This document shows, piece after piece, positions 38,625 to 60,345 of a DNA stretch of 64,000 nt (within the stretch, counting starts at the first letter, position 1; each line of letters begins with the position of its first letter). Under the pieces are notes generated by a model. The model was not told the origin of the DNA and did no database searches. It saw only the letters and a list, made by a program, of their open reading frames with translations. Source of the DNA: a phage. The position numbers were made by a program, and so were the translations under genes. The stretch lies in the sequence record PZ445489.1. One strand, 5' to 3'.

Positions 38625-38660
38625 AATTTTAAGCCAGGGTTTAACGACCCTGGCTTTTCT
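38625..38660 (+). terminator. rho-independent terminator
   Basis: agccagggt...accctggct stem followed by TTTCTTTTAT. Confidence 0.55.
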
Positions 38661-44232: not shown

Positions 44233-44293
44233 ATTAAAAAATTCAGTTGCTTTAAGCCTTAAAATTCTGTATAATAAGTTCATAAATTAATGA
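44233..44293 (+). promoter_or_regulatory. T5-type early promoter
   Basis: TTGCTT 44247-44252, 17-nt spacer, TATAAT 44270-44275. Confidence 0.65.
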
Positions 44294-44307
44294 GAGAGGA
44301 AATTCTA

Positions 44308-44559
44308 ATGGAAAACATGACTAAAAATGAAATGGCTAACGTTCTGGCAATTCTCCTCGACATGCAGGGTTTTGAGGGTCAGCTCATGAAGATGTCTATT
44401 CCGGCAATGAAAAAGATGTATGATTCTCTGAATAAGAATGCTATGGCATTCAACCTTGCAAAACAGGAAGCACGTTTTGCTAAAGAGCATCAAGCGACTG
44501 CCGAACGTCGTGCAGCATCTTTTGAGCGTGAAGTTAAGCAACTGAAAGGTAAGAAATAA
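44308..44559 (+). CDS. hypothetical protein (83 aa)
   Basis: ATG 44308 after GAGAGAGG; track start 44290 lies in promoter leader. Confidence 0.5.
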   Translation: MENMTKNEMANVLAILLDMQGFEGQLMKMSIPAMKKMYDSLNKNAMAFNLAKQEARFAKEHQATAERRAASFEREVKQLKGKK

Positions 44560-44723
44560 TGGAAAGAGTATCAATTTCAATACTGTCATTCCTTATAGGA
44601 ATACTAATATATAATATGGTTTCTCTTAACATACGCTTAACTGAAGTAGACAAGTCTCTTCATGAGCTAAACGTAGAGATTTGCAAAGTAACGCCAAATA
44701 ACGAAAAATGTAGGGGCATTTAA
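44559..44723 (+). CDS. small membrane protein (54 aa)
   Basis: TAATG overlap with upstream gene; hydrophobic; below ORF-track cutoff. Confidence 0.35.
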   Translation: MERVSISILSFLIGILIYNMVSLNIRLTEVDKSLHELNVEICKVTPNNEKCRGI

Positions 44724-45004
44724 TGTTAACTGAAATTCTCATTGGATTGCTAGTGCTTATGACACTAGTAGCGATTGGCGGGATTATTGGTATTGTAAGC
44801 ATGCGAAAAAATATAGAGAGTATGCTTACTACTAATAGTGGACTTCACTGCCGCTTAATAGAACAAGAACAAGATATTGAACTAGCACAGAGACGCTCAG
44901 ATATTCTAAAAGAAAAACTAAATAATATTGAAGCAATAGCTGGGAATACAAAATTACCTAATAAAGTAATGCGTGCACAGATAATTACGGAGATTAAAAA
45001 ATGA
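44723..45004 (+). CDS. membrane-anchored protein (93 aa)
   Basis: TAATG overlap; N-terminal TM segment. Confidence 0.45.
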   Translation: MLTEILIGLLVLMTLVAIGGIIGIVSMRKNIESMLTTNSGLHCRLIEQEQDIELAQRRSDILKEKLNNIEAIAGNTKLPNKVMRAQIITEIKK

Positions 45005-45246
45005 TGATGTTTATTCTAGCGTTTTATCTAATTGTGGTTGGTGTACTGGTTACCAAGTACCACACATGGACGCCAAAGAATGTTGTTAAGGTAGCTTTAT
45101 TTGTTATTCCAGTCCCACTTATTATATTTTCTATGTTACTGGTGATGTTAATCGGTAGAGTGACGAAGACCGATATTAAGCGCATTGCTGACGAATTGCA
45201 ACAGTCCTGTGATATGGTTGAGGATATTCTTAAAGATGAAGCTTAA
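45001..45246 (+). CDS. membrane protein (81 aa)
   Basis: ATGA overlap; two hydrophobic segments. Confidence 0.45.
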   Translation: MMMFILAFYLIVVGVLVTKYHTWTPKNVVKVALFVIPVPLIIFSMLLVMLIGRVTKTDIKRIADELQQSCDMVEDILKDEA

Positions 45247-45562
45247 TTTTAATGAATTAAATACCTTACATGAGATATTACAGTTTGTGAATAATAATAT
45301 TAGTATTCCAGATGATACACTAGAAGTCCTCATGGTAATCGAGAAAAAGGTAGGAATTGAGATTGAGGACTTCTGGAAACCGCTTTCTGTATTAACACCT
45401 CTTAATATGAAAGTGATAGTTAAAAATATCGATACTGGTGAAGAATGTAAGATGATTCGTAAAGAGCTAGCTGATAGCTATTCACCAAAGTCTGTAGTAA
45501 TGTATCATGATGACACACCTAAGGTTCTACAGACAGCTAATTACGTATGGCGTCTCCCATGA
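45236..45562 (+). CDS. hypothetical protein (108 aa)
   Basis: ATG overlapping upstream stop; track start 45185 is upstream in-frame. Confidence 0.45.
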   Translation: MKLNFNELNTLHEILQFVNNNISIPDDTLEVLMVIEKKVGIEIEDFWKPLSVLTPLNMKVIVKNIDTGEECKMIRKELADSYSPKSVVMYHDDTPKVLQTANYVWRLP

Positions 45563-45661
45563 TTGATTTAGTACCAATTACTGCGGGGCTAATAGCACTA
45601 TTAGTGCTCGCAGTTTTCATTATTGTGGAGCAGGCCAAAGTAATAAGGAGACTTAAAAACA

Positions 45662-45862
45662 ATGATAAAACGTCTTGTTTATCGGGCACCAAAGATTGTA
45701 ACTGAGTATTTTGTATTACTGCCCCAGATTGTATTTCTAACAGCATTATTTAATATACTTTTTCGACATCTAGGAATAACGGAAAATATCTTCTACACTT
45801 CTGAACTACTTCCTTTTATGTATGAAGGCATCATCGTGGCAATTAACGGAGTTCGTAAATGA
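45662..45862 (+). CDS. hypothetical protein (66 aa)
   Basis: ATG after AAGGAG RBS. Confidence 0.45.
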   Translation: MIKRLVYRAPKIVTEYFVLLPQIVFLTALFNILFRHLGITENIFYTSELLPFMYEGIIVAINGVRK

Positions 45863-46320
45863 CAGCACTACAACAACTACAGAATTACTGGTTTGATAAC
45901 CAATTTAACGATCTTTTCATCCAGTTGTTTGTCGAAACGAACGGACGCTTCAACTACCGATTCTTTAATAAGTTTCACGAAACAAAATTCTCGCATACAG
46001 AAATTAATGCAGCGATCCAAGACCTAACTGGTTCTAAAGTAGTTCAATATCGTGAAGTAGACTTTACACCAGATTGTTTTGGGTTTGAATTGTTTAAGAA
46101 AGCATATAAATTTGGTAAGTTTGAGGATGCTCGTCAATGGGTTCATGATTTCTGGTACAACACTGATATTGTTCCTAGTCGTGTACTGATTCTTAGCTGG
46201 ATTGCTAAACAACATCCGCCTAAAGCTCAATCATCCTTCTTACCGACTGACACAGGAAACCTCTACCATGACAGAAAAGAAAAATCCATTATTGGAGCAG
46301 ATGAAGGAGTGGGAGAGTAA
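45859..46320 (+). CDS. hypothetical protein (153 aa)
   Basis: ORF, ATGA overlap. Confidence 0.5.
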   Translation: MTALQQLQNYWFDNQFNDLFIQLFVETNGRFNYRFFNKFHETKFSHTEINAAIQDLTGSKVVQYREVDFTPDCFGFELFKKAYKFGKFEDARQWVHDFWYNTDIVPSRVLILSWIAKQHPPKAQSSFLPTDTGNLYHDRKEKSIIGADEGVGE

Positions 46321-46639
46321 TATTGAATCTGGTCTAATAGATGGTGAAGATATTGTTAACTCCATGCTAGAAGTAACAGTAGATAATATTAATCCTATTC
46401 TGGCTGGAGAAACCTCAGATCTTATAGGACTCTCTAGCACATTTGATTCTTTGGCTAAATTAGCCTTAGACGATGAAGAGATAACCAAAGAAGATCTCGC
46501 TACAGCTATGAATATGGCTATTAACGCTTACATTGGTAAACGTACCGATGAACTCGGTAAACAGATCAATAAGCGTGATACTACGCTAGGTCTTATGGAA
46601 ACGGCCACTATGTTAAGAAGTGGTAAACAACTTCATTAA
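46268..46639 (+). CDS. hypothetical acidic protein (123 aa)
   Basis: Internal ATG chosen to minimise overlap with upstream ORF. Confidence 0.45.
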   Translation: MTEKKNPLLEQMKEWESNIESGLIDGEDIVNSMLEVTVDNINPILAGETSDLIGLSSTFDSLAKLALDDEEITKEDLATAMNMAINAYIGKRTDELGKQINKRDTTLGLMETATMLRSGKQLH

Positions 46640-46641
46640 TT

Positions 46642-46680
46642 TTAAGGGGCCAGGACTTAGTTGTTCTGGCCTTTTGTGCT
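46642..46680 (+). terminator. rho-independent terminator
   Basis: ggccag...ctggcc stem followed by TTTTGTG. Confidence 0.5.
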
Positions 46681-46694
46681 TCAAGGAACTTCAA

Positions 46695-46898
46695 ATGCAA
46701 GTATATGTCCTTACTAGAGATATAAATGAGTATAATCAGGATGGTGAGTATTTTGTAAAAGTATTCGCTGAAAAGCCAAGTAAACAACAATTATTAGATG
46801 CTGGAGTACCGGAAGACCAAGCTAAGTGTTTACTGCAGGATAAAGAGTTTACTGGGGATGCTTACGAATGTTTCTACCTTAACTGTGAGACTATTTAA
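46695..46898 (+). CDS. hypothetical protein (67 aa)
   Basis: ATG after AAGGAA; follows terminator. Confidence 0.45.
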   Translation: MQVYVLTRDINEYNQDGEYFVKVFAEKPSKQQLLDAGVPEDQAKCLLQDKEFTGDAYECFYLNCETI

Positions 46899-46899
46899 T

Positions 46900-47346
46900 A
46901 TGAGAGAGAAAGTAAATGAATTATTAATCGAGGAAGCTAACAACTTTCCAATAAATAGGTTCATTAAATCGGATGGATCTATTAATAGAACTAAGATTAA
47001 GCAGCTACACCCCGACTTTCAACAAGAAGCACTAAACCTTATATTTATCAAGAAAGCCGTTGCAGCTCACGGGGCTTTCTTCGGATATGAGCGTGTAAAT
47101 TATAAAACAATGCAGCAGCAAGTCGAGATTTATTGTCCAGATCATGATGGTTATTACTGGCAGACTGCTAGATCTCATTTAGAAGGGCATGGTTGTCGAC
47201 TGTGTGCACACAAGGTTGTGCAGCGCGTCACGGATTATGGAACTTATACCGTACCAGCATGTTACCATAAATTTGTGATTGACGATAATCATATAGTTTG
47301 GTATAATAAGTTTTCAAAGCTAAGAATGGAGATAAATAGTGAGTAG
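46900..47346 (+). CDS. hypothetical Cys/His-containing protein (148 aa)
   Basis: CPDHDGYYWQ..HGCRLCAH cluster suggests metal binding. Confidence 0.45.
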   Translation: MREKVNELLIEEANNFPINRFIKSDGSINRTKIKQLHPDFQQEALNLIFIKKAVAAHGAFFGYERVNYKTMQQQVEIYCPDHDGYYWQTARSHLEGHGCRLCAHKVVQRVTDYGTYTVPACYHKFVIDDNHIVWYNKFSKLRMEINSE

Positions 47347-47629
47347 CTATATTGTATGGTCAAACCCACTAGCAGCACTTAGTAACAAACTATTTAAAAC
47401 AACGTGGGGATATAATGAGATAGACTTAGGTAGTCGCCCAATACCAAACAAACACCCCTTAGTTCCAGAGCTGTATAGGGTAGTAATAAATGGCGCAGAG
47501 TATTTGGTTGATAAATTTGACAGAAAACGTTTACTAGAGGGTATCTACGATAATTCTACATCAATAAATGAATTAGTAGAACATGCTCAAATATATGATA
47601 AAAGCTGGATGTTAATATGGAGATCATAG
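47339..47629 (+). CDS. hypothetical protein (96 aa)
   Basis: ORF; GTG start. Confidence 0.45.
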   Translation: MSSYIVWSNPLAALSNKLFKTTWGYNEIDLGSRPIPNKHPLVPELYRVVINGAEYLVDKFDRKRLLEGIYDNSTSINELVEHAQIYDKSWMLIWRS

Positions 47630-47850
47630 TAATTATTTTAGCAGTTATGTTATTTATTGTAACATTTGTATCATTTGCTATTATGCGCAGAGCTAGAGAA
47701 CTAGCGGAAGATATAACAAAATTACGTGGTGAGTTAGCTGCTCTTAAATTACAGCGTGAGGCTTTAAAGTTGTTTGTGGTTCAGGGTAGCGTAGAACATA
47801 CAACAGAAGACTTCATCACGTATCTCAAACGTTACATGGGAATTAAATAA
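47617..47850 (+). CDS. membrane-anchored protein (77 aa)
   Basis: N-terminal TM segment. Confidence 0.45.
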   Translation: MEIIVIILAVMLFIVTFVSFAIMRRARELAEDITKLRGELAALKLQREALKLFVVQGSVEHTTEDFITYLKRYMGIK

Positions 47851-48035
47851 TGGAAACTCTTTTTCTTTTAATGCTCGTAGGTTCCCTGCTAGTTATACTA
47901 GCACTTCTACTAATCTGTAATATTCTTAATAATAAGAATTTAGAGTTAAAGTGTGAGAACCAAATCCTTAACCGTGAACTTAAACAATATAACCTAGCAG
48001 CTCATAAGCTGTTAGACAAACTGGAGAATAAATAA
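47850..48035 (+). CDS. membrane-anchored protein (61 aa)
   Basis: N-terminal TM segment; ATGG overlap. Confidence 0.45.
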   Translation: METLFLLMLVGSLLVILALLLICNILNNKNLELKCENQILNRELKQYNLAAHKLLDKLENK

Positions 48036-48655
48036 TGACTTTATATGCACAACAATCTATTCAAGTAGTACCAGAGCATGAACTGAATACATGGGATTAT
48101 AGCTTTAAAGATTTAACTGCTACTGTACAATTCAAATCTATGAAGCTAACCTTTGCACACACTAGTATTAAAGCATGTAAAGATCTTGAAGGTAAGCTCG
48201 AAGATGCTCGCAAGATTTTTGGTACGGCTCGCATCCCGGCGGATAACCTGATTAATGCACTGATCGATGCAGGGTACAAACTTGTGAAGACTGAGGTGAA
48301 CCGCCCCAGTACTCCAGTGACTATTAGAGATCCGTGGCAGTCAGGGACAATCTCAATGCTGAATAACTCCGATAAAAGATTAATGTCGGATATGCACAAT
48401 GTTCCTTGTGGGGGTGTGGTAAGTAGTACGAAGTCATATAAGTTTGGGGAAGATTACGGCCCTTCTGTACAGTTGAAACATACCCAAGAAGCTTTTGAAT
48501 CTGATATGCGAAGCGTAGCACCTGTGGATGCTGGAGTTTCTAGGAGTTCTGTTTGTACTATTCATTTTAATAATCCTAGTAAACATGGAAGTCTAGAAGA
48601 TGCAATTATGGAAGCACTGGGAGCTGTTATTAATGAAGATAAGAGGGGTAATTAA
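48035..48655 (+). CDS. hypothetical protein (206 aa)
   Basis: ORF. Confidence 0.5.
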   Translation: MTLYAQQSIQVVPEHELNTWDYSFKDLTATVQFKSMKLTFAHTSIKACKDLEGKLEDARKIFGTARIPADNLINALIDAGYKLVKTEVNRPSTPVTIRDPWQSGTISMLNNSDKRLMSDMHNVPCGGVVSSTKSYKFGEDYGPSVQLKHTQEAFESDMRSVAPVDAGVSRSSVCTIHFNNPSKHGSLEDAIMEALGAVINEDKRGN

Positions 48656-49386
48656 TGAAAGATTTGGCAGTAAAATTTAAGAATATTCTAGCCCTCGCTA
48701 AGGGGGCTGATCATCGCTGTTTCTCTGATCTAACTGCTCAAGAGAAACATGCAGTAATGTTTGTTTGTGAGATGTTCCCAGCTAGGTGGGAAGGTGGTAA
48801 GATTAAGTATGATAACAAAGCTGCAAAAGCTGACCTTGCTTACTCTTATGTTGATATGAATAAACTTCTCAAGTCTTTAGATCCAACTGCTAAAGGTCAC
48901 ATGGGAAACTATATTCATGTTATTATTGATGAACCTCTCCCAGCGTATAGAGAAACATCCGCTAGAGAAGCGTTAGAAGCGTATCCTGAGCAACTTCTTA
49001 TCCCACCTAAGAAATGTAAGTTCGATCATCTTCCAGCATTAGCTTTTGAAACTAGCATTACGTTTGAAGATATTTATAGAACGATTGGAGCTGTAGTAGC
49101 ACGGATTGCAGTGGCACATCATCGTGATATAGAACTAACTACAGCGGAAGATTACATTCTATATGCTATCCACGATGAAAAGGACTCCTTCAAACGTTTA
49201 ATGGATGCGCTAGGATTAGGTAGTCTCACTGCACTTGTGCTTAACCAGGCTCCTAGAACTAAGCGTTATGCAAAAGGATCTATTACTCTTGAAGAAACAG
49301 GATCTACATCTTCATTCCTTGCTACGTATATTTATCTAGCATCTAAAGGAATCTATCTAAAGGCTAGAAAGAATGTCACTATATAA
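48655..49386 (+). CDS. hypothetical protein (243 aa)
   Basis: ORF. Confidence 0.5.
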   Translation: MKDLAVKFKNILALAKGADHRCFSDLTAQEKHAVMFVCEMFPARWEGGKIKYDNKAAKADLAYSYVDMNKLLKSLDPTAKGHMGNYIHVIIDEPLPAYRETSAREALEAYPEQLLIPPKKCKFDHLPALAFETSITFEDIYRTIGAVVARIAVAHHRDIELTTAEDYILYAIHDEKDSFKRLMDALGLGSLTALVLNQAPRTKRYAKGSITLEETGSTSSFLATYIYLASKGIYLKARKNVTI

Positions 49387-49729
49387 AGTATATATTCTTG
49401 CAAATAGGGATCTGACGAAGATCCCTAAGAGAACAAAGATCGGTATTAGTATGAATCCACATAATAGGATTCAAACACTAAACTTAGATAAGATAGTTTA
49501 TCGTGGTTTTGACGATTTATACGTGTATGGGATCTATGAAACCCATAATCCTAGAGATCTAGAAGCCGCTGCACATATCTACTTTAAGAAATACCGCTGT
49601 AATTTAAAGGGATTCGAAGGATGCACAGAGTTCTTTGATATTCACCCACAACTTGCAGAACGATTCCTATTAAATACAGGAGCCAAGAAGATTTACGACC
49701 CCAATATCAATCTCGAAGGAGATGTATAA
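49373..49729 (+). CDS. GIY-YIG-like nuclease domain protein (118 aa)
   Basis: YKVYIL...KIGISMNPHNRIQTL resembles the GIY-(N10)-YIG-..R..N pattern; weak. Confidence 0.4.
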   Translation: MSLYKVYILANRDLTKIPKRTKIGISMNPHNRIQTLNLDKIVYRGFDDLYVYGIYETHNPRDLEAAAHIYFKKYRCNLKGFEGCTEFFDIHPQLAERFLLNTGAKKIYDPNINLEGDV

Positions 49730-51129: not shown

Positions 51130-51327
51130 AGTATTCCTACGTAGTGAATAATTCTAATATACCGCTAAAACGTCCTAGATCGCATTCTAACGCGTTTAAT
51201 TTTGGTGGGGATACTAAAACAAGGGCAAAATTGGAGGAGGCTTAAAAATTAGTTAGCCCGCTAACGATCACACAAGTCGACACGTAACACCCTAATCATT
51301 AGCAGGCTAACCATCGCGGGCGCGCTC

Positions 51328-51348
51328 AAATGAGAATGATTCTCATTT
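51328..51348. promoter_or_regulatory. palindromic operator-like box AAATGAGAATGATTCTCATTT
   Basis: 10-bp arms, same family as the 50.9-kb boxes; just beyond 3' end of leftward operon. Confidence 0.5.
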
Positions 51349-51389
51349 GAGAATTGGGGGCACTCCCTGGTAGTTGCGCCCCGTTATTA

Positions 51390-53291: not shown

Positions 53292-53356
53292 TTATTAGCC
53301 TCCTATTAATTAACAAGGGAATACTAAAGCGGGGTAACAATCCCCGCTTAGTATTA

Positions 53357-55516: not shown

Positions 55517-55720
55517 ATGAAACAAACTTTATTGATCACTGGTAAACCTAGCAAGGCACTGGACAGCAAAACAAAAAATTTGTTGACAGTAGCGCAAAGA
55601 TCGGTAAAATATCGATTTAAGCAGTACAAGAAAGGCCGCCAGCAAGGTCTGGAAATGATCTGGCGTAATATTATGATTGACTTAAAAGAAAATCATAAAA
55701 AACTGCAAAAAATTGTTTGA
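55517..55720 (+). CDS. small basic protein (67 aa) bracketed by 24-bp inverted repeat
   Basis: ATG with weak purine-rich RBS (GGAATCGACGAT upstream); Lys/Arg-rich. Confidence 0.45.
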   Translation: MKQTLLITGKPSKALDSKTKNLLTVAQRSVKYRFKQYKKGRQQGLEMIWRNIMIDLKENHKKLQKIV

Positions 55721-55728
55721 CACCCTAG

Positions 55729-55752
55729 CCGATAGGCTTTAAGATGTACCCA
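55729..55752. repeat. 24-bp perfect inverted repeat, right arm
   Basis: ccgataggctttaagatgtaccca. Confidence 0.8.
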
Positions 55753-55947
55753 GTTCGATAAGAGCGATAACTTGATAAAATTTGACGGTCGGCACTTACC
55801 ATAATGTGCCCCGCCCCCTAACTGGGATATAGCGGCCTGCGTGGAGTTCTTTAAATTGATTATATTGGCGAGCGGATTGTTGCTTATTACCTGCTAGAAA
55901 GTAGCAGGTAATGCGGAACAATCCCCTAAATAACTGGAGTTTATACT

Positions 55948-56199
55948 ATGCAAAACGTTATCATTACGCCGAAAGTTGGTCAATCCGTTTTTATTCCTTT
56001 CGTTACTAAAACGGATGAATTAACCGGAAAGGCCGAACGCATTAAAGGCGCGGCGCTTATGCCGTTCGATACAATCGACGCGGTATACGCTGAAACGGAA
56101 CGGAGTAACAACGGCAAAACCGTTTTTAGCGTTCGCGTTAAATCCGGCGACGTTGTAAAGGTTGTCCAGCGTAACGAAAAATGGGAAGCTGTAGCGTAA
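55948..56199 (+). CDS. hypothetical pre-early protein (83 aa)
   Basis: ATG after GGAG RBS. Confidence 0.5.
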   Translation: MQNVIITPKVGQSVFIPFVTKTDELTGKAERIKGAALMPFDTIDAVYAETERSNNGKTVFSVRVKSGDVVKVVQRNEKWEAVA

Positions 56200-56300
56200 T
56201 ATAGTGTTAACTTTATATTCCTCTGAAATATGGGGAATATAATGATTAACATTAAGTTAATCATTAAATCCCTTAAATTAAACTAACAGGAGCTACAATC

Positions 56301-56708
56301 ATGACTAACGTTAAAACCGCAAAATTCTCATGGAATGAAGAAAACACCCAAAAAGCTGTTACCATGTACCAGCAGTTAATTAATGAAAACGGTTTAGATT
56401 TCGCAAATAGCGACGGCCTGAAAGAGATTGCAAAAGCAGTTGGCGCGGCCTCCCCCGTGTCCGTTCGCTCAAAATTGACCAGCGCGAAAGCGTATCAGAA
56501 AAGCGATAAGCCGCGCAAAGTTGGCGGCGGTAGCTCAATCCGCAAAGCGCATTATGTGCGCGTTATTGCAAAACACGCTATCGATTCCGGCATTATCAAA
56601 GACGCCGACGATCTGGCATCACTGGAAAGCGCAAAACTGGAAACGCTGGACGCCGTGGCGCAACTGTTAGGCGTTGCCGATGAAGTGAAACAAGCCGCAG
56701 GCGAATAA
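56301..56708 (+). CDS. A2: pre-early protein, A2-like by size and position
   Basis: 135 aa, AGGAG RBS, directly upstream of A1-like gene; assignment by synteny and size only. Confidence 0.4.
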   Translation: MTNVKTAKFSWNEENTQKAVTMYQQLINENGLDFANSDGLKEIAKAVGAASPVSVRSKLTSAKAYQKSDKPRKVGGGSSIRKAHYVRVIAKHAIDSGIIKDADDLASLESAKLETLDAVAQLLGVADEVKQAAGE

Positions 56709-56765
56709 ATTTAATTAGTGGGGAATATTCCCCACTATAATTTCCCTTTGACTGGAGTTATTAAA

Positions 56766-56963
56766 ATGATCTTTTACCCTACTGAATCCTTAATTCTAGG
56801 CTTATTTATTATGGCGGCCTCATTACTATTCGCTTATTTTCAAAATGATTTAGATTCATATTATTTTAAACGTAAATCTAAGTTAGCAAAGCGTTTAGGT
56901 CTGATTTGTTTTATTGCCGCCGTTGTTTGTGGTGTTAGTTCTAGCCTTATGCCTTTAAATTAA
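56766..56963 (+). CDS. small membrane protein (65 aa)
   Basis: ATG after GGAG RBS; two hydrophobic segments (track start 56718 is upstream). Confidence 0.45.
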   Translation: MIFYPTESLILGLFIMAASLLFAYFQNDLDSYYFKRKSKLAKRLGLICFIAAVVCGVSSSLMPLN

Positions 56964-57060
56964 TGTTGCAAATTATAACGCCTCAAATAATAGGCGTTAT
57001 ATTTGGCAATATTTGCCAATAACAAACGTTTTTTAATCCCTTTAATGGAGTTTTATTACT

Positions 57061-58725
57061 ATGATTATTTCCGCAGAAAAACAAACCGTTATCCTGAAAA
57101 TGGCCGCTGACTTTAATTTCTACGGTAAACGTCTGCGCGCTACTAAACTGGAGGTCTGCGACGATATATCAAAAGCGGTTTACGATACTCCAAAACATTC
57201 CACCGCTATTTGTGATTGGCTGGAAGCAAATAAACCAGCGAAACCGAAAGCGGCGAAAGTAGCAAAAGCCATTAAAAACGATGAGCGCCCAGAAGCGGCG
57301 GGGATTGTTTCTAGCACGGTGGAAAGCTGGGAAGTAAAACAAGGCAAACGCTTTATTATTACATCGATTCAGAATAATACGTTCCCGCATAAAAACTTTT
57401 TAGCCTCACTGGAGCAATTTGCTAAATATATCGGCGCTGATTTGCTGGTTAGCAAGTATATTTATAATAAAAACGGATTCCAAAATGGCGAGGGCGCGGA
57501 TGGAATAAAATATGATTCCGCGTTCGATAAATATATTTGCAGCAAAAACGTGTTTTTGAATAATCGCCGTTTTGCTTTCATGGCTGAAATTAATGTTTTG
57601 CCCACCGCAGATTATCCGCTTTCTGGATTCGCTGAAACTGCAACCGCGCTTAATCTGGAAGGTCTGGCAATTGGTCACGCTAAAATCACCGCCGAAAGCG
57701 TGCCAGCTTTAAAAGGTGAAGTAGTGCGCCGCATGTATTCAACTGGCACGGCAACGCTTAAAAATTACATCCAGCAGAAAGCAGGACAGAAAGCGGAAGC
57801 ACTGCATAACTTCGGTGCGCTGATTGTTGAGTTCGACGAAGACGGTGAGTTTTTTGTTCGCCAGCTTGAAACAATGGACGAAAGCGGGGTGTTTTATGAT
57901 CTGAATGTTTGCGCTACTCCCGCCGGATGCTATGAAACATCGGGGCATGTTTTAGGCTTACAATACGGCGATATTCACGCAGAAAAATTAGATGAAGAGT
58001 GCGCCGCCGCGTCATGGGCTGGCGAAAATAGCTTGCTTGATATTCTTAAACCAAAATATCAGTTTATCCATGACGTTCACGACTTTACATCACGCAACCA
58101 TCACAACCGCGCTTCGGGTGTATTCCTAGCAAAACAATACGCCGCCGGACGTGATAAAGTTCTGGATGATCTTATCGATACCGGTCGCGTGCTGGAATCA
58201 ATGGAACGTGATTTCTCGCAAACAATCATTGTTGAATCTAATCACGATCTGGCGCTATCCCGTTGGCTGGATGATCGTAATGCTAACATTAAAGACGACC
58301 CCGCAAACGCGGAACTATATCACCGCCTTAATGCCGCGATTTATGGCGCTATTGCAGAAAAAGACGATACTTTCAACGTGCTAGATTATGCGCTGCGTAA
58401 GGTTGCAGGTTGCGAGTTTAACGCCATTTTCCTAACGACTGACCAATCATTTAAAATTGCAGGCATTGAATGCGGCGTACACGGTCACAATGGCATAAAC
58501 GGCAGCCGTGGCAATCCGAAACAGTTTAAGAAATTGGGCAAATTAAACACGGGGCACACTCATACCGCCAGCATTTACGGCGGGGTATATACCGCTGGCG
58601 TGGCTGGTAGTCTGGACATGGGTTACAACGTTGGCGCGTCAAGCTGGACACAAACGCATTTAATTACCTATGCAAATGGTCAGCGTACTTTGATCGACTT
58701 TAAGAACGGTAAATTTTTTGCGTAA
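57061..58725 (+). CDS. A1: pre-early protein A1-like with calcineurin-like phosphoesterase motifs
   Basis: 554 aa; GDIHAE, ESNHD and GHTHTAS resemble Mre11/SbcD-type metallophosphoesterase motifs; size matches T5 A1 as I recall it. Confidence 0.55.
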   Translation: MIISAEKQTVILKMAADFNFYGKRLRATKLEVCDDISKAVYDTPKHSTAICDWLEANKPAKPKAAKVAKAIKNDERPEAAGIVSSTVESWEVKQGKRFIITSIQNNTFPHKNFLASLEQFAKYIGADLLVSKYIYNKNGFQNGEGADGIKYDSAFDKYICSKNVFLNNRRFAFMAEINVLPTADYPLSGFAETATALNLEGLAIGHAKITAESVPALKGEVVRRMYSTGTATLKNYIQQKAGQKAEALHNFGALIVEFDEDGEFFVRQLETMDESGVFYDLNVCATPAGCYETSGHVLGLQYGDIHAEKLDEECAAASWAGENSLLDILKPKYQFIHDVHDFTSRNHHNRASGVFLAKQYAAGRDKVLDDLIDTGRVLESMERDFSQTIIVESNHDLALSRWLDDRNANIKDDPANAELYHRLNAAIYGAIAEKDDTFNVLDYALRKVAGCEFNAIFLTTDQSFKIAGIECGVHGHNGINGSRGNPKQFKKLGKLNTGHTHTASIYGGVYTAGVAGSLDMGYNVGASSWTQTHLITYANGQRTLIDFKNGKFFA

Positions 58726-58781
58726 ATAATTAATACCCTAGCGGCTTGAAATATAGCCGCTATTATAGGAGCTAAATTAGA

Positions 58782-59039
58782 ATGAAAGTTACATTACCCA
58801 AAACGCTGGACGAAAAAGCATTTATTTCACCGGATGAAATGGAATCCGATAAAGTTTACAGCTTCGGGCCTATCCTAGCCGCCAAAACTAATACGGATGG
58901 GATTATTACGGTCGATTATCGTGATAATGATATTATCCCTTTTGACGATGATGACGCTTTTTATGAGTGGCTAAGCGATAATAATTTACCCGTAAATGGT
59001 GAATTAACGCCGTATCAAATGCAGATTATTATCAAGTAA
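58782..59039 (+). CDS. hypothetical pre-early protein (85 aa)
   Basis: ATG after AGGAG RBS. Confidence 0.5.
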   Translation: MKVTLPKTLDEKAFISPDEMESDKVYSFGPILAAKTNTDGIITVDYRDNDIIPFDDDDAFYEWLSDNNLPVNGELTPYQMQIIIK

Positions 59040-59079
59040 ATTAAATACCCTTTATTAAATTAATTGGAGTTTTATAAAT

Positions 59080-59472
59080 ATGAAAAAGCAAAATATCCCA
59101 TTCGATCGCGCTCAATCTTCCATTGTTCTGGTTTATTCTAATGGTGAACGTTACCACGTCGAGGCGGGGCACGTTATTGATGAGCTATTGGACTTTAACG
59201 ACGCTTTGCAGGTTACTACCTTTGCCTATACGCAAGGTAAACTAACTAGCCATATTAAAGCAAAAGGTGTTTATGTTGACACTGTGAAACAAGAAACGAT
59301 TATCATCGACGCCGTAAAATCCGGCCTAGCCTTTGCAGTTGTCGCGCCTTGCCCCGCTTGCCTCGATGATCAATTGACCAGCGCAAAGGTATATACCTGC
59401 GCGGGCATTCGTTCCGGTGTATCTGGTGAAGATATTAGTTTTATTGCTGATGCGTTGGCGTATGGTCTTTAA
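59080..59472 (+). CDS. hypothetical pre-early protein (130 aa)
   Basis: ATG after GGAG RBS. Confidence 0.5.
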   Translation: MKKQNIPFDRAQSSIVLVYSNGERYHVEAGHVIDELLDFNDALQVTTFAYTQGKLTSHIKAKGVYVDTVKQETIIIDAVKSGLAFAVVAPCPACLDDQLTSAKVYTCAGIRSGVSGEDISFIADALAYGL

Positions 59473-59552
59473 TAGTTAATTTATTATTACCCGCTTATAA
59501 ATAGCGGGTAATGCTGAATTAATCTAATCCCTTAAATGGAGAACGTAACAAA

Positions 59553-60287
59553 ATGAATCAAGTTAAAACGAATATTACCCGTAATTTCCCGCATATTTCC
59601 CGCGTCATGATTTGGGATCTGGACGGAACTATCATTAATTCTTTCCATCGCGTAGCGCCTTGCTTTGATAGCGAGGGCAATTTAGATTTAAATAAGTATA
59701 AAAATGAAGCATGTAAACATGATTTAATAATGCAAGATACACTATTGCCGCTTGTTACATATATGCGCCAGTGCATGAATGATGTTAGTACGTTAAACAT
59801 TATTTGCACCGCTCGACTGATGAGCAAGTCGGACTATTATTATTTGCGCAAACAAGGATTGCGAGGGCGTGGGGATAGTAATATCCGTGTATTTTCCCGC
59901 GATACACTACACAAATATTTTGAGGCTGATAAAGTTAGCGAGATATACCACAGCAAAGACGCTATTTATAAAAGCCATTACTTTGAGTTATTTAAACAAT
60001 TATATCCGAACGCTGATTTCACGATGATTGATGATCATAAAGGCGTGCTATCAGCGGCGGCGTCATACGGATTTAAAACGCTGGACGCGCAAGCCGTTAA
60101 CGATATTCTATCGATTGGGGTTACATTGATAGGTGAAACCTTTATCGATGAATCTCTTGAGGATGATAATGATTATCAGTTCCTAGCCGACCGCCTGCAA
60201 TTATGTTGGGAAGGTATGACCGAAGAAGAACGCGCAGAATATAGTTGCAGCCCGCAACAATATATTGAGAAATTAAAAGTTGCGTAA
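59553..60287 (+). CDS. dmp: HAD-family 5'-deoxyribonucleotidase-like protein (Dmp-like)
   Basis: 244 aa; HAD motif I IWDLDGTIIN; size and position match T5 dmp as I recall it. Confidence 0.55.
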   Translation: MNQVKTNITRNFPHISRVMIWDLDGTIINSFHRVAPCFDSEGNLDLNKYKNEACKHDLIMQDTLLPLVTYMRQCMNDVSTLNIICTARLMSKSDYYYLRKQGLRGRGDSNIRVFSRDTLHKYFEADKVSEIYHSKDAIYKSHYFELFKQLYPNADFTMIDDHKGVLSAAASYGFKTLDAQAVNDILSIGVTLIGETFIDESLEDDNDYQFLADRLQLCWEGMTEEERAEYSCSPQQYIEKLKVA

Positions 60288-60299
60288 TAATTAAAGTTG

Positions 60300-60345
60300 A
60301 AATAGTCACGGTGTGTAATGATAACATGCCGTGACTATTAGCCTG
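60300..60345 (+). terminator. hairpin after dmp-like gene
   Basis: agtcacggtgtgtaatgataacatgccgtgact stem-loop; no clear T-run. Confidence 0.35.

What the first reader, a model, noticed from the sequence alone, without database searches (positions are those of the whole stretch)
56301..60287. Pre-early A2/A1/dmp-like block and a family of TTA-stem-TAA intergenic hairpins
Gene sizes (135, 554, 244 aa) and order match T5 A2, A1 and dmp as I recall them. The A1-like protein has metallophosphoesterase motifs (GDIHAE, ESNHD, GHTHTAS), consistent with a nuclease role in host DNA degradation. Five intergenic hairpins share the same form without T-runs (about 55886-55910, 56716-56737, 56975-57000, 58739-58762, 59487-59511), suggesting RNA processing or stability elements rather than terminators.
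Basis: partly seen in the sequence, partly recalled or inferred. Interest (0 to 1): 0.45.

Follow-up and report, generated by a model that had tools for sequence, protein, structure and literature searches.

The report
T5 pre-early operon with intercistronic hairpins
This is the well-known "first-injected" gene block of a T5-like phage (A2, A1 and Dmp, 96-98% identical to T5), and the small hairpins between its genes are real, evolutionarily maintained RNA structures that do not look like ordinary terminators, although what they do has not been measured.

Summary
The window is a Tequintavirus (97.8% DNA identity to phage vB_EcoD-Elw). Positions 55.7-60.4 kb are the rightward pre-early (first-step-transfer) operon of the terminal repeat. 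A2, A1 and Dmp are 98%, 96% and 98% identical to the T5 proteins.

All five hairpins are present, and I found two more. Six perfect stems of 8 bp or more lie in 716 nt of spacer, against none in 3909 nt of coding sequence (shuffles: 0.28). In relatives the stems are kept by compensatory changes or replaced by unrelated hairpins at the same place, also in a Klebsiella Sugarlandvirus. G·U pairs favour the sense strand. None has a U-tract, although canonical terminators occur elsewhere in the window.

Best reading: intercistronic mRNA stability or processing structures. Five of the seven are 16-21 bp helices, close to RNase III substrate size. Function is inferred, not shown. "TTA-stem-TAA" is not a true motif. 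T5 record AY587007 already marks three of them as palindromes or a terminator. Overall ordinary, with a modest regulatory lead.

The parts
55717..55745 (+). Sigma-70 promoter (TTGACA-17-TAAGAT), equivalent of T5 promoter P-D/E20, that drives the operon.
   Evidence: Promoter scan. It maps onto the P-D/E20 feature of T5 records AY692264 and AY587007.
55874..55924 (+). HP0: bipartite stem-loop (21 pairs) in the 5' leader, in front of the T5.007-like ORF.
   Evidence: Folds at -30.6 kcal/mol, z -7.0. Seven pairs carry compensatory changes in 16 relatives.
55948..56199 (+). T5.007 homologue (83 aa, DUF7177).
   Evidence: Pfam PF23801, E 3e-42. T5 annotation.
56202..56254 (+). HP1: bipartite stem-loop (21 pairs) between the T5.007-like ORF and A2.
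   Evidence: Folds at -20.3 kcal/mol, z -6.1. 99.1% of cells are paired and 6 pairs change on both sides; 0 of 500 shuffles reach this.
56240..56266 (+). Conserved palindrome (core GATTAAC-N5-GTTAATC). It overlaps the 3' arm of the outer stem of HP1, so the two pairings exclude each other.
56301..56708 (+). A2 (135 aa), DNA-binding protein needed for second-step transfer.
   Evidence: 98% identical to T5 A2. PHROG 1725.
56716..56737 (+). HP2: 9-bp stem-loop after A2. It is 'palindrome B' of T5 record AY587007.
   Evidence: Folds at -14.4 kcal/mol, z -3.9. A compensatory TAGTGGGG/CCCCACTA to TAGCGGGG/CCCCGCTA change is seen. T5 annotation.
56766..56963 (+). T5.005 homologue (65 aa, membrane protein).
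   Evidence: PHROG 4820. T5 annotation.
56962..57013 (+). HP3: bipartite stem-loop (20 pairs) that starts inside the stop codon of the T5.005-like gene.
   Evidence: Folds at -21.3 kcal/mol, z -6.5. Conserved in 25 variants, with stem-top changes and a flipped loop.
57003..57019 (+). Conserved palindrome TTGGCAA-TAT-TTGCCAA that overlaps the 3' arm of the outer stem of HP3.
57037..57050 (+). TCCCTTTAATGGAG: the 'CCC box' plus Shine-Dalgarno sequence of A1. Similar boxes lie at 56269-56292 (A2) and 59528-59541 (dmp).
   Evidence: Pattern search found 4 hits against 0.05 expected. The box precedes 6 of the 7 operon genes and is invariant in relatives.
57061..58725 (+). A1 (554 aa): N-terminal helical domain, a beta-rich middle domain and a C-terminal metallophosphoesterase domain.
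58739..58762 (+). HP4: 8-bp stem-loop after A1.
   Evidence: Folds at -12.9 kcal/mol, z -4.2. At least four unrelated hairpin sequences occupy this position in relatives.
58782..59039 (+). 85-aa ORF (PHROG 8297). This slot is variable and is replaced in some relatives.
59080..59472 (+). T5.002 homologue (130 aa).
   Evidence: PHROG 4576. T5 annotation.
59475..59523 (+). HP6: bipartite stem-loop (20 pairs) between the T5.002-like ORF and dmp. It is 'palindrome A' of AY587007.
   Evidence: Folds at -23.0 kcal/mol, z -6.4. 100% of cells are paired and 4 of 9 inner pairs change on both sides; 0 of 500 shuffles reach this. T5 annotation.
59553..60287 (+). dmp: deoxynucleoside-5'-monophosphatase (244 aa).
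   Evidence: 98% identical to T5 Dmp.
60301..60339 (+). HP7: 16-bp stem-loop after dmp, about 58 nt from the physical end of the genome.
   Evidence: Folds at -22.9 kcal/mol, z -7.2. 7 of 15 pairs carry compensatory changes. The repeat ends at about 60397.

Best explanation
Positions 55.7-60.4 kb are the rightward pre-early (first-step-transfer) operon of a T5-like phage. Host RNA polymerase transcribes it from a P-D/E20-type promoter as one polycistronic mRNA. It encodes a T5.007-like protein, A2, a T5.005-like protein, A1, two small ORFs and Dmp.

A1 is a metallophosphoesterase-fold nuclease and the driver of host DNA degradation. Dmp dephosphorylates the released dNMPs. A2 is a DNA-binding protein needed for second-step transfer.

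Nearly every spacer, plus the 3' end of the operon, carries a G+C-rich stem-loop that starts 0-15 nt after the stop codon. I propose that these act on the sense mRNA, not as intrinsic terminators. They would be structural barriers or processing sites that protect upstream cistrons from 3'-to-5' exonucleases and set segment-specific mRNA stability. The five long ones (16-21 bp helices: HP0, HP1, HP3, HP6, HP7) are near the size of RNase III substrates. They could be cut in the way the RNase III sites of the T7 early region are cut.

Shown here: the identity of the genes, the fold of A1, the existence of the hairpins, their evolutionary maintenance, their strand bias and the lack of U-tracts.

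Inferred: that they work in RNA, and that the effect is stabilisation or processing.
For: Genes:
- DNA is 97.8% identical to a Tequintavirus.
- Proteins are 96-98% identical to T5, in T5 order.
- A1 motif residues D304, H306, D338, N394, H395, H474, H499 and H501 are invariant in 54 homologues.
- The literature says A1 is necessary and sufficient for host DNA degradation.

Hairpins:
- z-scores run from -3.9 to -7.2.
- There are 6 in 716 nt of spacer against 0 in 3909 nt of coding sequence, with 0.28 expected.
- Compensatory substitutions occur in HP0, HP1, HP6 and HP7, with 99-100% of cells paired. 0 of 500 shuffles reach the observed covariation, and sliding the partners by 1-3 columns drops pairing to 31-60%.
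- Unrelated hairpins occupy the same post-stop position after A1 and after A2 in other Tequintaviruses.
- The same holds in all five spacers examined in Klebsiella phage Spivey, a different genus.
- One-sided changes are almost all to G·U on the sense strand.
- Sense folds are 2-7 kcal/mol more stable than antisense folds.
- No hairpin scores as a terminator on the + strand, whereas stem plus T-run terminators occur elsewhere in the window at 38631, 39856 and 41137.
- HP7 is maintained although, in the left-repeat copy, the DNA ends about 110 nt after dmp. Transcripts would run off there, so no terminator is needed, but a 3' protective hairpin would be useful (inference).
- Early genes at 44-49.7 kb abut or overlap without spacers. 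The spacer-plus-hairpin layout is therefore special to the pre-early operon.
Against: - No transcript-end, processing or half-life data for T5 pre-early mRNA were found in the searchable literature.
- HP2 and HP4 have only 8-10 bp, too short for RNase III. RNase III therefore cannot explain the whole family.
- The stems are perfect or near-perfect inverted repeats, so DNA-level roles are not excluded.
- G·T pairs are also tolerated in single-stranded DNA hairpins.
- Other annotators called two of these hairpins putative terminators.
- Covariation shows selection for pairing, not which process uses it.
Confidence: 0.5

Rival explanations
1. The hairpins are weak, non-canonical intrinsic terminators or pause sites. 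They would attenuate transcription stepwise along the operon and set a gradient of expression from the T5.007-like gene down to dmp.
For: - They are G+C-rich 8-12 bp stems placed directly after stop codons.
- The HdH2 record labels the HP6 equivalent 'putative transcriptional terminator'. AY587007 labels the HP7 equivalent 'putative rho-independent terminator'.
- The tail of HP2 (TAATTTCCCTTT) is moderately T-rich.
Against: - No U-tract follows any stem on the sense strand, and the terminator scan finds none of them on the + strand.
- The same genome uses classical stem plus T-run terminators elsewhere.
- The essential gene A1 lies downstream of four hairpins and dmp downstream of six. Efficient termination would therefore be self-defeating.
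- The AY587007 terminator call for HP7 is on the strand opposite to dmp.
Confidence: 0.2
2. The hairpins isolate the translation of neighbouring cistrons or regulate ribosome access. Together with the conserved CCC box, which is partly complementary to GGA of the Shine-Dalgarno sequence, they would tune or couple initiation at each pre-early gene.
For: - Each hairpin lies between a stop codon and the next ribosome-binding site.
- The outer stems of HP3 and HP6 include the stop codon, so a terminating ribosome must melt them.
- The CCC box precedes 6 of the 7 operon genes, against 2 of about 40 elsewhere. It is conserved across genera.
- Box-to-SD pairing is predicted for orf85, orf130 and dmp.
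Against: - The predicted box-SD pairing is weak and inconsistent: none for A2 and little for A1.
- The hairpins themselves do not include the SD or the start codon.
- HP7 has no downstream cistron, yet it is equally conserved.
Confidence: 0.15
3. The inverted repeats act in DNA. They could be protein-binding palindromes, cruciforms or recombination junctions that allow gene modules of the pre-early region to be exchanged between phages, as proposed for the promoter-stem-loop cassettes of T4-type phages.
For: - Loops are found in both orientations among relatives for HP0, HP3, HP6 and HP7. This is a DNA-level inversion between the repeat arms.
- Gene content changes exactly at the spacers. The module after A2 and the slot after A1 differ between relatives, and a homing endonuclease is inserted after A1 in HdH2.
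- AY587007 lists two of them simply as palindromes.
Against: - Stem sequences differ completely between positions and between relatives while pairing is kept. This argues against sequence-specific protein binding.
- G·U pairs are strongly biased to the sense strand.
- The hairpins are confined to transcribed spacers.
- Loop inversion can be a passive by-product of any inverted repeat.
Confidence: 0.1

Closest known systems
Bacteriophage T5 left-terminal-repeat pre-early region (dmp-T5.002-T5.003-A1-T5.005-A2-T5.007, promoters P-D/E20 and P-H22; NC_005859, AY587007, AY692264)
   Same: - Same gene order.
- A2, A1 and Dmp are 98%, 96% and 98% identical to T5.
- The same hairpins are present in T5 itself (loci L019 and L035).
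- 'Palindrome A', 'palindrome B' and a putative terminator are already marked in AY587007.
   Different: - The slot between A1 and the T5.002 homologue holds an 85-aa ORF here, against the 92-aa T5.003 in T5.
- Several hairpins differ from T5 by compensatory changes or flipped loops.
- HP7 is a different sequence from the T5 version.
RNase III processing sites of the T7 early region (R0.3, R0.5, R1, R1.1, R1.3)
   Same: - Both are intercistronic stem-loops in an early operon transcribed by host RNA polymerase.
- Both have a bipartite helix with a small internal loop.
- Neither has a U-tract.
- In T7 the processed hairpin stays at the 3' end and stabilises the upstream mRNA (established knowledge; folds compared).
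   Different: - The T7 sites share a conserved sequence (CAAGGUC...GGCCUUUAUGAUU). The T5-type hairpins share none with T7 and little with each other.
- Two of the seven are too short for RNase III.
- Cleavage has been demonstrated for T7 and is untested here.
Intercistronic stabiliser hairpins of bacterial operons (REP elements such as malE-malF; the puf operon of Rhodobacter)
   Same: They are stable stem-loops just after a stop codon inside a polycistronic mRNA, with no U-tract. They act as 3'-exonuclease barriers and give differential cistron stability (established knowledge).
   Different: REPs are a dispersed sequence family of the host genome. The hairpins here are phage-specific, each is different, and each evolves by covariation.
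PeSL (promoter-early stem-loop) cassettes of T4-type phages
   Same: Both are short repeated regulatory cassettes, with a stem-loop, that flank small early genes in a variable region. Gene modules are exchanged at these cassettes (recalled from the literature, not re-read here).
   Different: A PeSL carries its own early promoter. Here no promoter accompanies the hairpins. The repeated unit is hairpin, CCC box and GGAG.
Mre11/SbcD and PolD-DP1 metallophosphoesterase nucleases (for A1)
   Different: - No sequence-level match in Pfam or PDB.
- A1 has an extra N-terminal helical domain, which is HTH-like in some homologues, and a beta-rich middle domain.
- No Rad50/SbcC partner is encoded nearby.

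Membership tests
T5 A1 / A2 / Dmp orthologues | High sequence identity to the T5 proteins over the full length. | tested here: met
   A2 132/135, A1 531/556 and Dmp 239/244 identical residues.
T5 A1 / A2 / Dmp orthologues | Same order and orientation inside the terminal repeat, next to the genome end, downstream of P-D/E20. | tested here: met
   Annotation of Elw and T5. Promoter at 55717-55745. The repeat ends at about 60397.
Calcineurin-like metallophosphoesterase superfamily (A1) | Five motifs: D-x-H, G-D-x-x-D, G-N-H-D/E, H, G-H-x-H. | tested here: met
   GDIHAE, HDVHD, SNHD, GVHGH and GHTH are present. D304, H306, D338, N394, H395, H474, H499 and H501 are invariant in 54 homologues.
Calcineurin-like metallophosphoesterase superfamily (A1) | Beta-sandwich phosphoesterase fold. 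| tested here: met
   [not shown]
Calcineurin-like metallophosphoesterase superfamily (A1) | Significant match to a Pfam Metallophos model or to a solved MPE by sequence. | tested here: not met
   No Pfam hit at E <= 0.01. phmmer and a profile search against PDB gave nothing relevant.
Calcineurin-like metallophosphoesterase superfamily (A1) | Metal-dependent nuclease activity. | not testable with these tools
   Genetics only: A1 is necessary and sufficient for chromosome degradation in vivo (bioRxiv 10.64898/2026.04.02.716235).
Intrinsic (Rho-independent) terminators | G+C-rich stem-loop. | tested here: met
   Stems of 8-12 bp with 4-5 G-C pairs.
Intrinsic (Rho-independent) terminators | U-tract immediately 3' of the stem on the transcribed strand. 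| tested here: not met
   None of the seven is called on the + strand. The 10-nt tails hold 1-5 T, never as a run. Canonical examples elsewhere in the window have 4-7 T, including runs.
RNase III processing sites (T7 early type) | Roughly two helical turns (about 20 bp) of mostly continuous double helix. | tested here: inconclusive
   HP0, HP1, HP3 and HP6 have 20-21 pairs and HP7 has 16. HP2 and HP4 have only 8-10.
RNase III processing sites (T7 early type) | Cleavage by RNase III in vivo or in vitro. | not testable with these tools
   No data found in the literature.
RNase III processing sites (T7 early type) | Sequence relationship to the T7 sites. | tested here: not met
   The T7 sites share CAAGGUC...GGCCUUUAUGAUU, which is absent here. 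No Rfam family matches.
Structured RNA element under selection | Base pairs maintained by compensatory substitutions, beyond the controls. | tested here: met
   HP1 has 6 pairs and 25 cells changed on both sides (0 of 500 shuffles reach the cell count, 1 of 500 the pair count). HP6 has 4 pairs. HP0 and HP7 have 7 pairs each. Slid controls pair at 31-60%, against 99-100% observed.

The most novel reading that the evidence does not exclude
The repeated unit 'stop codon - hairpin - A/U-CCC-A/U box - GGAG' may be a dedicated post-transcriptional control cassette of T5-type pre-early genes. A host or phage RNA-binding factor or nuclease would read it. This would resemble the way T4 RegB and RegA act on early ribosome-binding sites, or the way RNase III acts on T7 early mRNA. 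It would allow the burst and then rapid shut-off of pre-early protein synthesis, independently of promoter control. The competing small palindromes in front of A2 and A1 would act as switches.
Probability: 0.08. Interest if true: 0.6.

Novelty: new member of a known kind. Interest (0 to 1): 0.25.

Why it matters
The gene block itself adds nothing new. It is T5's pre-early operon, and the metallophosphoesterase nature and role of A1 are already in the literature.

The modest value lies in the spacers. Every cistron boundary of this operon carries a stem-loop that selection has kept for pairing across at least two genera. None is a classical terminator. A conserved CCC box sits in front of nearly every Shine-Dalgarno sequence.

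How T5 times and balances pre-early expression is poorly understood. These proteins are toxic and are needed for only a few minutes. The elements described here give concrete, mutable targets for testing mRNA processing and stability. They also matter for people who engineer or delete pre-early genes, because deletions that remove a spacer may change expression of the neighbouring genes.

Tried and rejected
- Pfam on all eight ORFs: no hit for A1, A2 or Dmp.
- phmmer and a 54-sequence profile of A1 against PDB sequences: only spurious hits, such as MAP kinase and dehydroquinase.
- Single-sequence AlphaFold of A1: failed, pLDDT 33. It was repeated with an alignment.
- Foldseek against PDB: E-values of 0.06 or worse, not significant by themselves.
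- Rfam scan of 53-62 kb at E <= 1: only three sub-threshold chance hits, none on a hairpin.
- Literature searches for T5 transcript mapping, terminators or RNase III processing: nothing specific. Davison's 2015 review is not held.
- Idea that the CCC box is a boxA-like NusB/NusE site, since UCCCUUUAA resembles rrn boxA GCUCUUUAA and follows a hairpin as in rrn leaders: rejected. The Spivey boxes (AUCCCAUAC, AACCCAUAA, ACCCCGAAA) keep only the CCC.
- Idea that the box sequesters the Shine-Dalgarno sequence: pairing probabilities are inconsistent between genes.
- Idea that HP0, with its GAAAG loop, is a lambda boxB-like element: rejected, because relatives carry the flipped loop CUUUC.
- Distant A1-bearing contigs (A1 below 50% identity, L042-L067): neither the box nor a consistent post-stop hairpin is seen next to A1. 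The architecture is therefore limited to the T5-like and Sugarland-like groups.
- Comparison with folded T7 RNase III sites: no decisive similarity.

Full report
WHAT THE REGION IS

The 5-kb stretch is 97.8% identical to Escherichia phage vB_EcoD-Elw and 90-96% identical to many other Tequintaviruses. About 500 phage records match it. In Elw it lies inside the annotated terminal repeat. The genes there are annotated as A2-A3, A1 (DNA transfer protein) and 5'-deoxynucleotidase, followed by the lytic-conversion lipoprotein and the receptor-binding protein pb5.

- A2: 132 of 135 residues identical.
- A1: 531 of 556 residues identical.
- Dmp: 239 of 244 residues identical.

The other ORFs are also T5 homologues:
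- 55517-55720 is T5.008 (hdi).
- 55948-56199 is T5.007 (DUF7177).
- 56766-56963 is the 65-aa membrane protein T5.005. The 81-aa GTG ORF listed mechanically is not the gene.
- 59080-59472 is T5.002.
- 58782-59039 is an 85-aa ORF in the slot that T5.003 occupies in T5.

A TTGACA-17-TAAGAT promoter at 55717-55745 coincides with the position of T5 promoter P-D/E20.

A1

Pfam gives no hit for A1. Sequence searches against PDB, with the single protein and with a 54-sequence profile, give nothing meaningful.

A database search returned 843 homologues. In an alignment of 54 of them, identities to the window protein run from 95% down to about 41%. The invariant columns include G303-D304-x-H306, H337-D338-x-x-D341, S393-N394-H395-D396, H474 and G498-H499-x-H501.

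A single-sequence AlphaFold run failed with pLDDT 33. With the alignment, the model reached pLDDT 90 and pTM 0.81.

This agrees with a 2026 preprint from the Rossier/Boulanger group. It calls A1 a predicted metallo-phosphatase with features of double-strand-break-repair and proofreading nucleases. It shows genetically that A1 is necessary and sufficient for chromosome degradation.

THE HAIRPINS EXIST AND ARE NOT CHANCE

All five reported hairpins are present at the stated positions. Two further ones of the same kind were missed:
- HP1 at 56202-56254, in front of A2.
- HP7 at 60301-60339, after dmp.

Folded as RNA, the seven elements have energies of -12.9 to -30.6 kcal/mol and z-scores of -3.9 to -7.2. 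None of 200 shuffles folds as well.

Perfect stems of at least 8 bp occur six times in the 716 nt of spacer and never in the 3909 nt of coding sequence. Shuffled spacers give a mean of 0.28 and a maximum of 2.

Four of the seven are bipartite. They have a G+C-rich upper stem of 10-12 bp, a 1-2 nt internal loop and an A+U-rich lower stem of 8-10 bp, giving 20-21 pairs in all. HP7 is a single 16-bp stem. HP2 and HP4 are simple 8-10 bp stems.

The hairpins begin 0-15 nt after the stop codon. The lower stem of HP3 starts inside the stop codon, and that of HP6 starts 2 nt after the tandem stops (TAATAG).

THE HAIRPINS ARE CONSERVED AS STRUCTURES

I fetched 66 loci that encode A1 relatives and aligned each spacer.

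The stems vary by compensatory change. Examples:
- TATATTCC/GGAATATA, TATATACCCC/GGGGTATATA, TATATCCCCC/GGGGGATATA and TATATGCCCC/GGGGCATATA in HP1.
- TTACCCGC/GCGGGTAA, TTGCCCGC/GCGGGCAA and TTGCCAGC/GCTGGCAA in HP6.
- CACGGTG/TGCCGTG against CACACTG/TGGTGTG in HP7.

The formal counts are:
- HP1: 19 pairs, 99.1% of cells paired, 6 pairs and 25 cells changed on both sides. 0 of 500 shuffles reach the covariation score. Pairing falls to 39-60% when the 3' partners are slid by 1-3 columns.
- HP6: 9 inner pairs, 100% paired, 4 pairs with changes on both sides, 0 of 500 shuffles.
- HP0: 7 of 20 pairs with compensatory changes.
- HP7: 7 of 15 pairs with compensatory changes.

After A1, at least four unrelated hairpins occupy the same place in different phages: TAGCGGCT.., GGCGGTTG.., GCGGGGTATATACCCCGC and GCTGGAAATACTTCCAGC. 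After A2, phages with a different downstream module still carry a hairpin, TTGCCCCC...GGGGGCAA, directly after the stop codon.

In Klebsiella phage Spivey (Sugarlandvirus) the spacers are largely unalignable. Even so, each of the five spacers and the operon end has a post-stop hairpin, and again some are bipartite.

In contigs whose A1 is below 50% identical, the pattern is not seen.

RNA OR DNA, AND WHICH STRAND

One-sided changes in the stems are almost all to G·U as read on the sense strand: U-A to U·G and C-G to U·G. The A·C class, which would be G·U on the other strand, is rare.

In the window, the sense strand folds 1.8-7.1 kcal/mol better than the antisense strand for all five long hairpins. 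Over all variants, sense is the more stable in 16/26, 21/24, 24/25, 16/20 and 20/22 cases for HP0, HP1, HP3, HP6 and HP7.

This points to function in the pre-early mRNA. It does not strictly exclude a single-stranded DNA form of the coding strand.

NOT CLASSICAL TERMINATORS

No hairpin is followed by a U-tract, and the consensus scan calls none of them on the + strand. The same genome has textbook stem plus T-run terminators elsewhere, for example at 38631, 39856 and 41137.

A1, an essential gene, lies behind four hairpins, and dmp lies behind six.

HP7 is also informative. In the left-repeat copy, which is the only one in the cell during first-step transfer, the DNA ends about 110 nt after dmp. 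The repeat boundary is at about window 60397. A terminator is superfluous there, yet the hairpin is maintained by covariation. That fits a 3' protective structure.

By contrast, the early genes at 44-49.7 kb abut or overlap without spacers.

MOST LIKELY MECHANISM

The hairpins are most likely intercistronic mRNA structures that act after transcription. They would be barriers to 3' exonucleases and, for the five long ones, possibly RNase III sites. The effect would be to divide the polycistronic pre-early RNA into segments of defined stability.

This is how the RNase III sites of the T7 early region and the REP-type hairpins of bacterial operons work (established knowledge). I compared folds of the T7 sites. 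The layout is similar, but there is no sequence relationship, and two of the seven elements here are too short for RNase III.

I put about 0.5 on 'RNA stability or processing element', of which perhaps half would be RNase III. The rivals are leaky terminators or pause sites (0.2), translational insulation or regulation (0.15) and DNA-level palindromes or recombination junctions (0.1).

No transcript-end data for T5 were found in the searchable library.

PRIOR KNOWLEDGE

T5 record AY587007 already marks three of these elements:
- the HP6 equivalent as 'palindrome A';
- the HP2 equivalent as 'palindrome B';
- the HP7 equivalent as a 'putative rho-independent terminator', on the strand opposite to dmp.

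The HdH2 record calls the HP6 equivalent a putative terminator. NC_005859 and AY692264 annotate none of them.

I found no description of them as a family, of their covariation or of their function.

SIDE OBSERVATIONS

1. A short 'A/U-CCC-U/A' box lies between hairpin and GGAG in front of 6 of the 7 operon genes. For the seventh it lies 5' of the hairpin. It also precedes one or two genes of the divergent pre-early operon. Only 2 of about 40 other GGAG-ATG sites in the window have it. It is nearly invariant in relatives and is kept in Spivey. Its role is unknown. The boxA-like and SD-sequestering readings did not hold up.

2. The loops of HP0, HP3, HP6 and HP7 occur in both orientations among relatives, as exact or one-mismatch reverse complements. 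The loops have therefore been inverted repeatedly between the repeat arms, and their orientation evidently does not matter.

3. Two conserved 7-bp-arm palindromes just upstream of A2 and A1 overlap the 3' arms of the outer stems of HP1 and HP3, so the pairings exclude each other.

VERDICT

The gene block and the nature of A1 are already known. The hairpin family is a real, selected feature of a familiar kind, with a modest open question about its mechanism.

Noticed in passing
window 55921-55926, 56270-56274, 56750-56754, 57038-57042, 58736-58739, 59051-59055, 59529-59533; also 53300-53315 (- strand): A short 'A/U-CCC-U/A' box (e.g. AATCCCTTTAAT) lies 3-17 nt upstream of the GGAG Shine-Dalgarno sequence of 6 of the 7 genes of the operon. 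It is rare in front of other genes of the window. It is nearly invariant in relatives and is kept in Klebsiella phage Spivey. Its function is unknown. The boxA-like and SD-sequestering readings were not supported.
   Followed up: partly
loops of the hairpins at window 55897-55901, 56984-56991, 59496-59502, 60317-60323, compared with loci L002-L041: The loop sequences occur in both orientations among related phages: GAAAG against CTTTC, CAAATAAT against ATTATTTG, TATAAAT against ATTTATC, and AATGATA against TATCATC. This means the segment between the inverted-repeat arms has been inverted repeatedly.
   Followed up: partly
window 56244-56262 and 57003-57019: Two strongly conserved palindromes with 7-bp arms, GATTAAC-N5-GTTAATC and TTGGCAA-TAT-TTGCCAA, sit just upstream of the essential genes A2 and A1. 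They overlap the 3' arms of the outer stems of HP1 and HP3, so the pairings are alternatives. They could be RNA switches or protein-binding sites.
   Followed up: no
window about 60397; layout of 43.8-63.5 kb: The terminal repeat ends at about 60397, roughly 110 nt after dmp. The window joins early genes (below 49.7 kb), the non-coding injection-stop region (about 49.8-51.3 kb), both pre-early operons (51.3-60.4 kb) and the late genes llp and pb5 (61.3-63.5 kb). It therefore comes from an assembly with the two terminal repeats collapsed into one.
   Followed up: partly
window 55750-55947: The roughly 195-nt leader between the P-D/E20-like promoter and the first gene is highly structured (-68.7 kcal/mol for 227 nt) and contains further hairpins besides HP0. 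There is no Rfam match.
   Followed up: no
window 53327-53349 and 51325-51351 (- strand operon): The divergent pre-early operon shows the same design. One hairpin lies between the 336-aa and 164-aa genes and is followed by TATTCCCTT...AGGAG. A 12-bp hairpin lies after the last gene. Neither has a T-run.
   Followed up: no
[not shown]
   Followed up: no
window 44290-49729: The early genes in this stretch abut or overlap (stop and start codons shared or adjacent) with no spacers or hairpins. This contrasts sharply with the 40-100 nt structured spacers of the pre-early operon.
   Followed up: no
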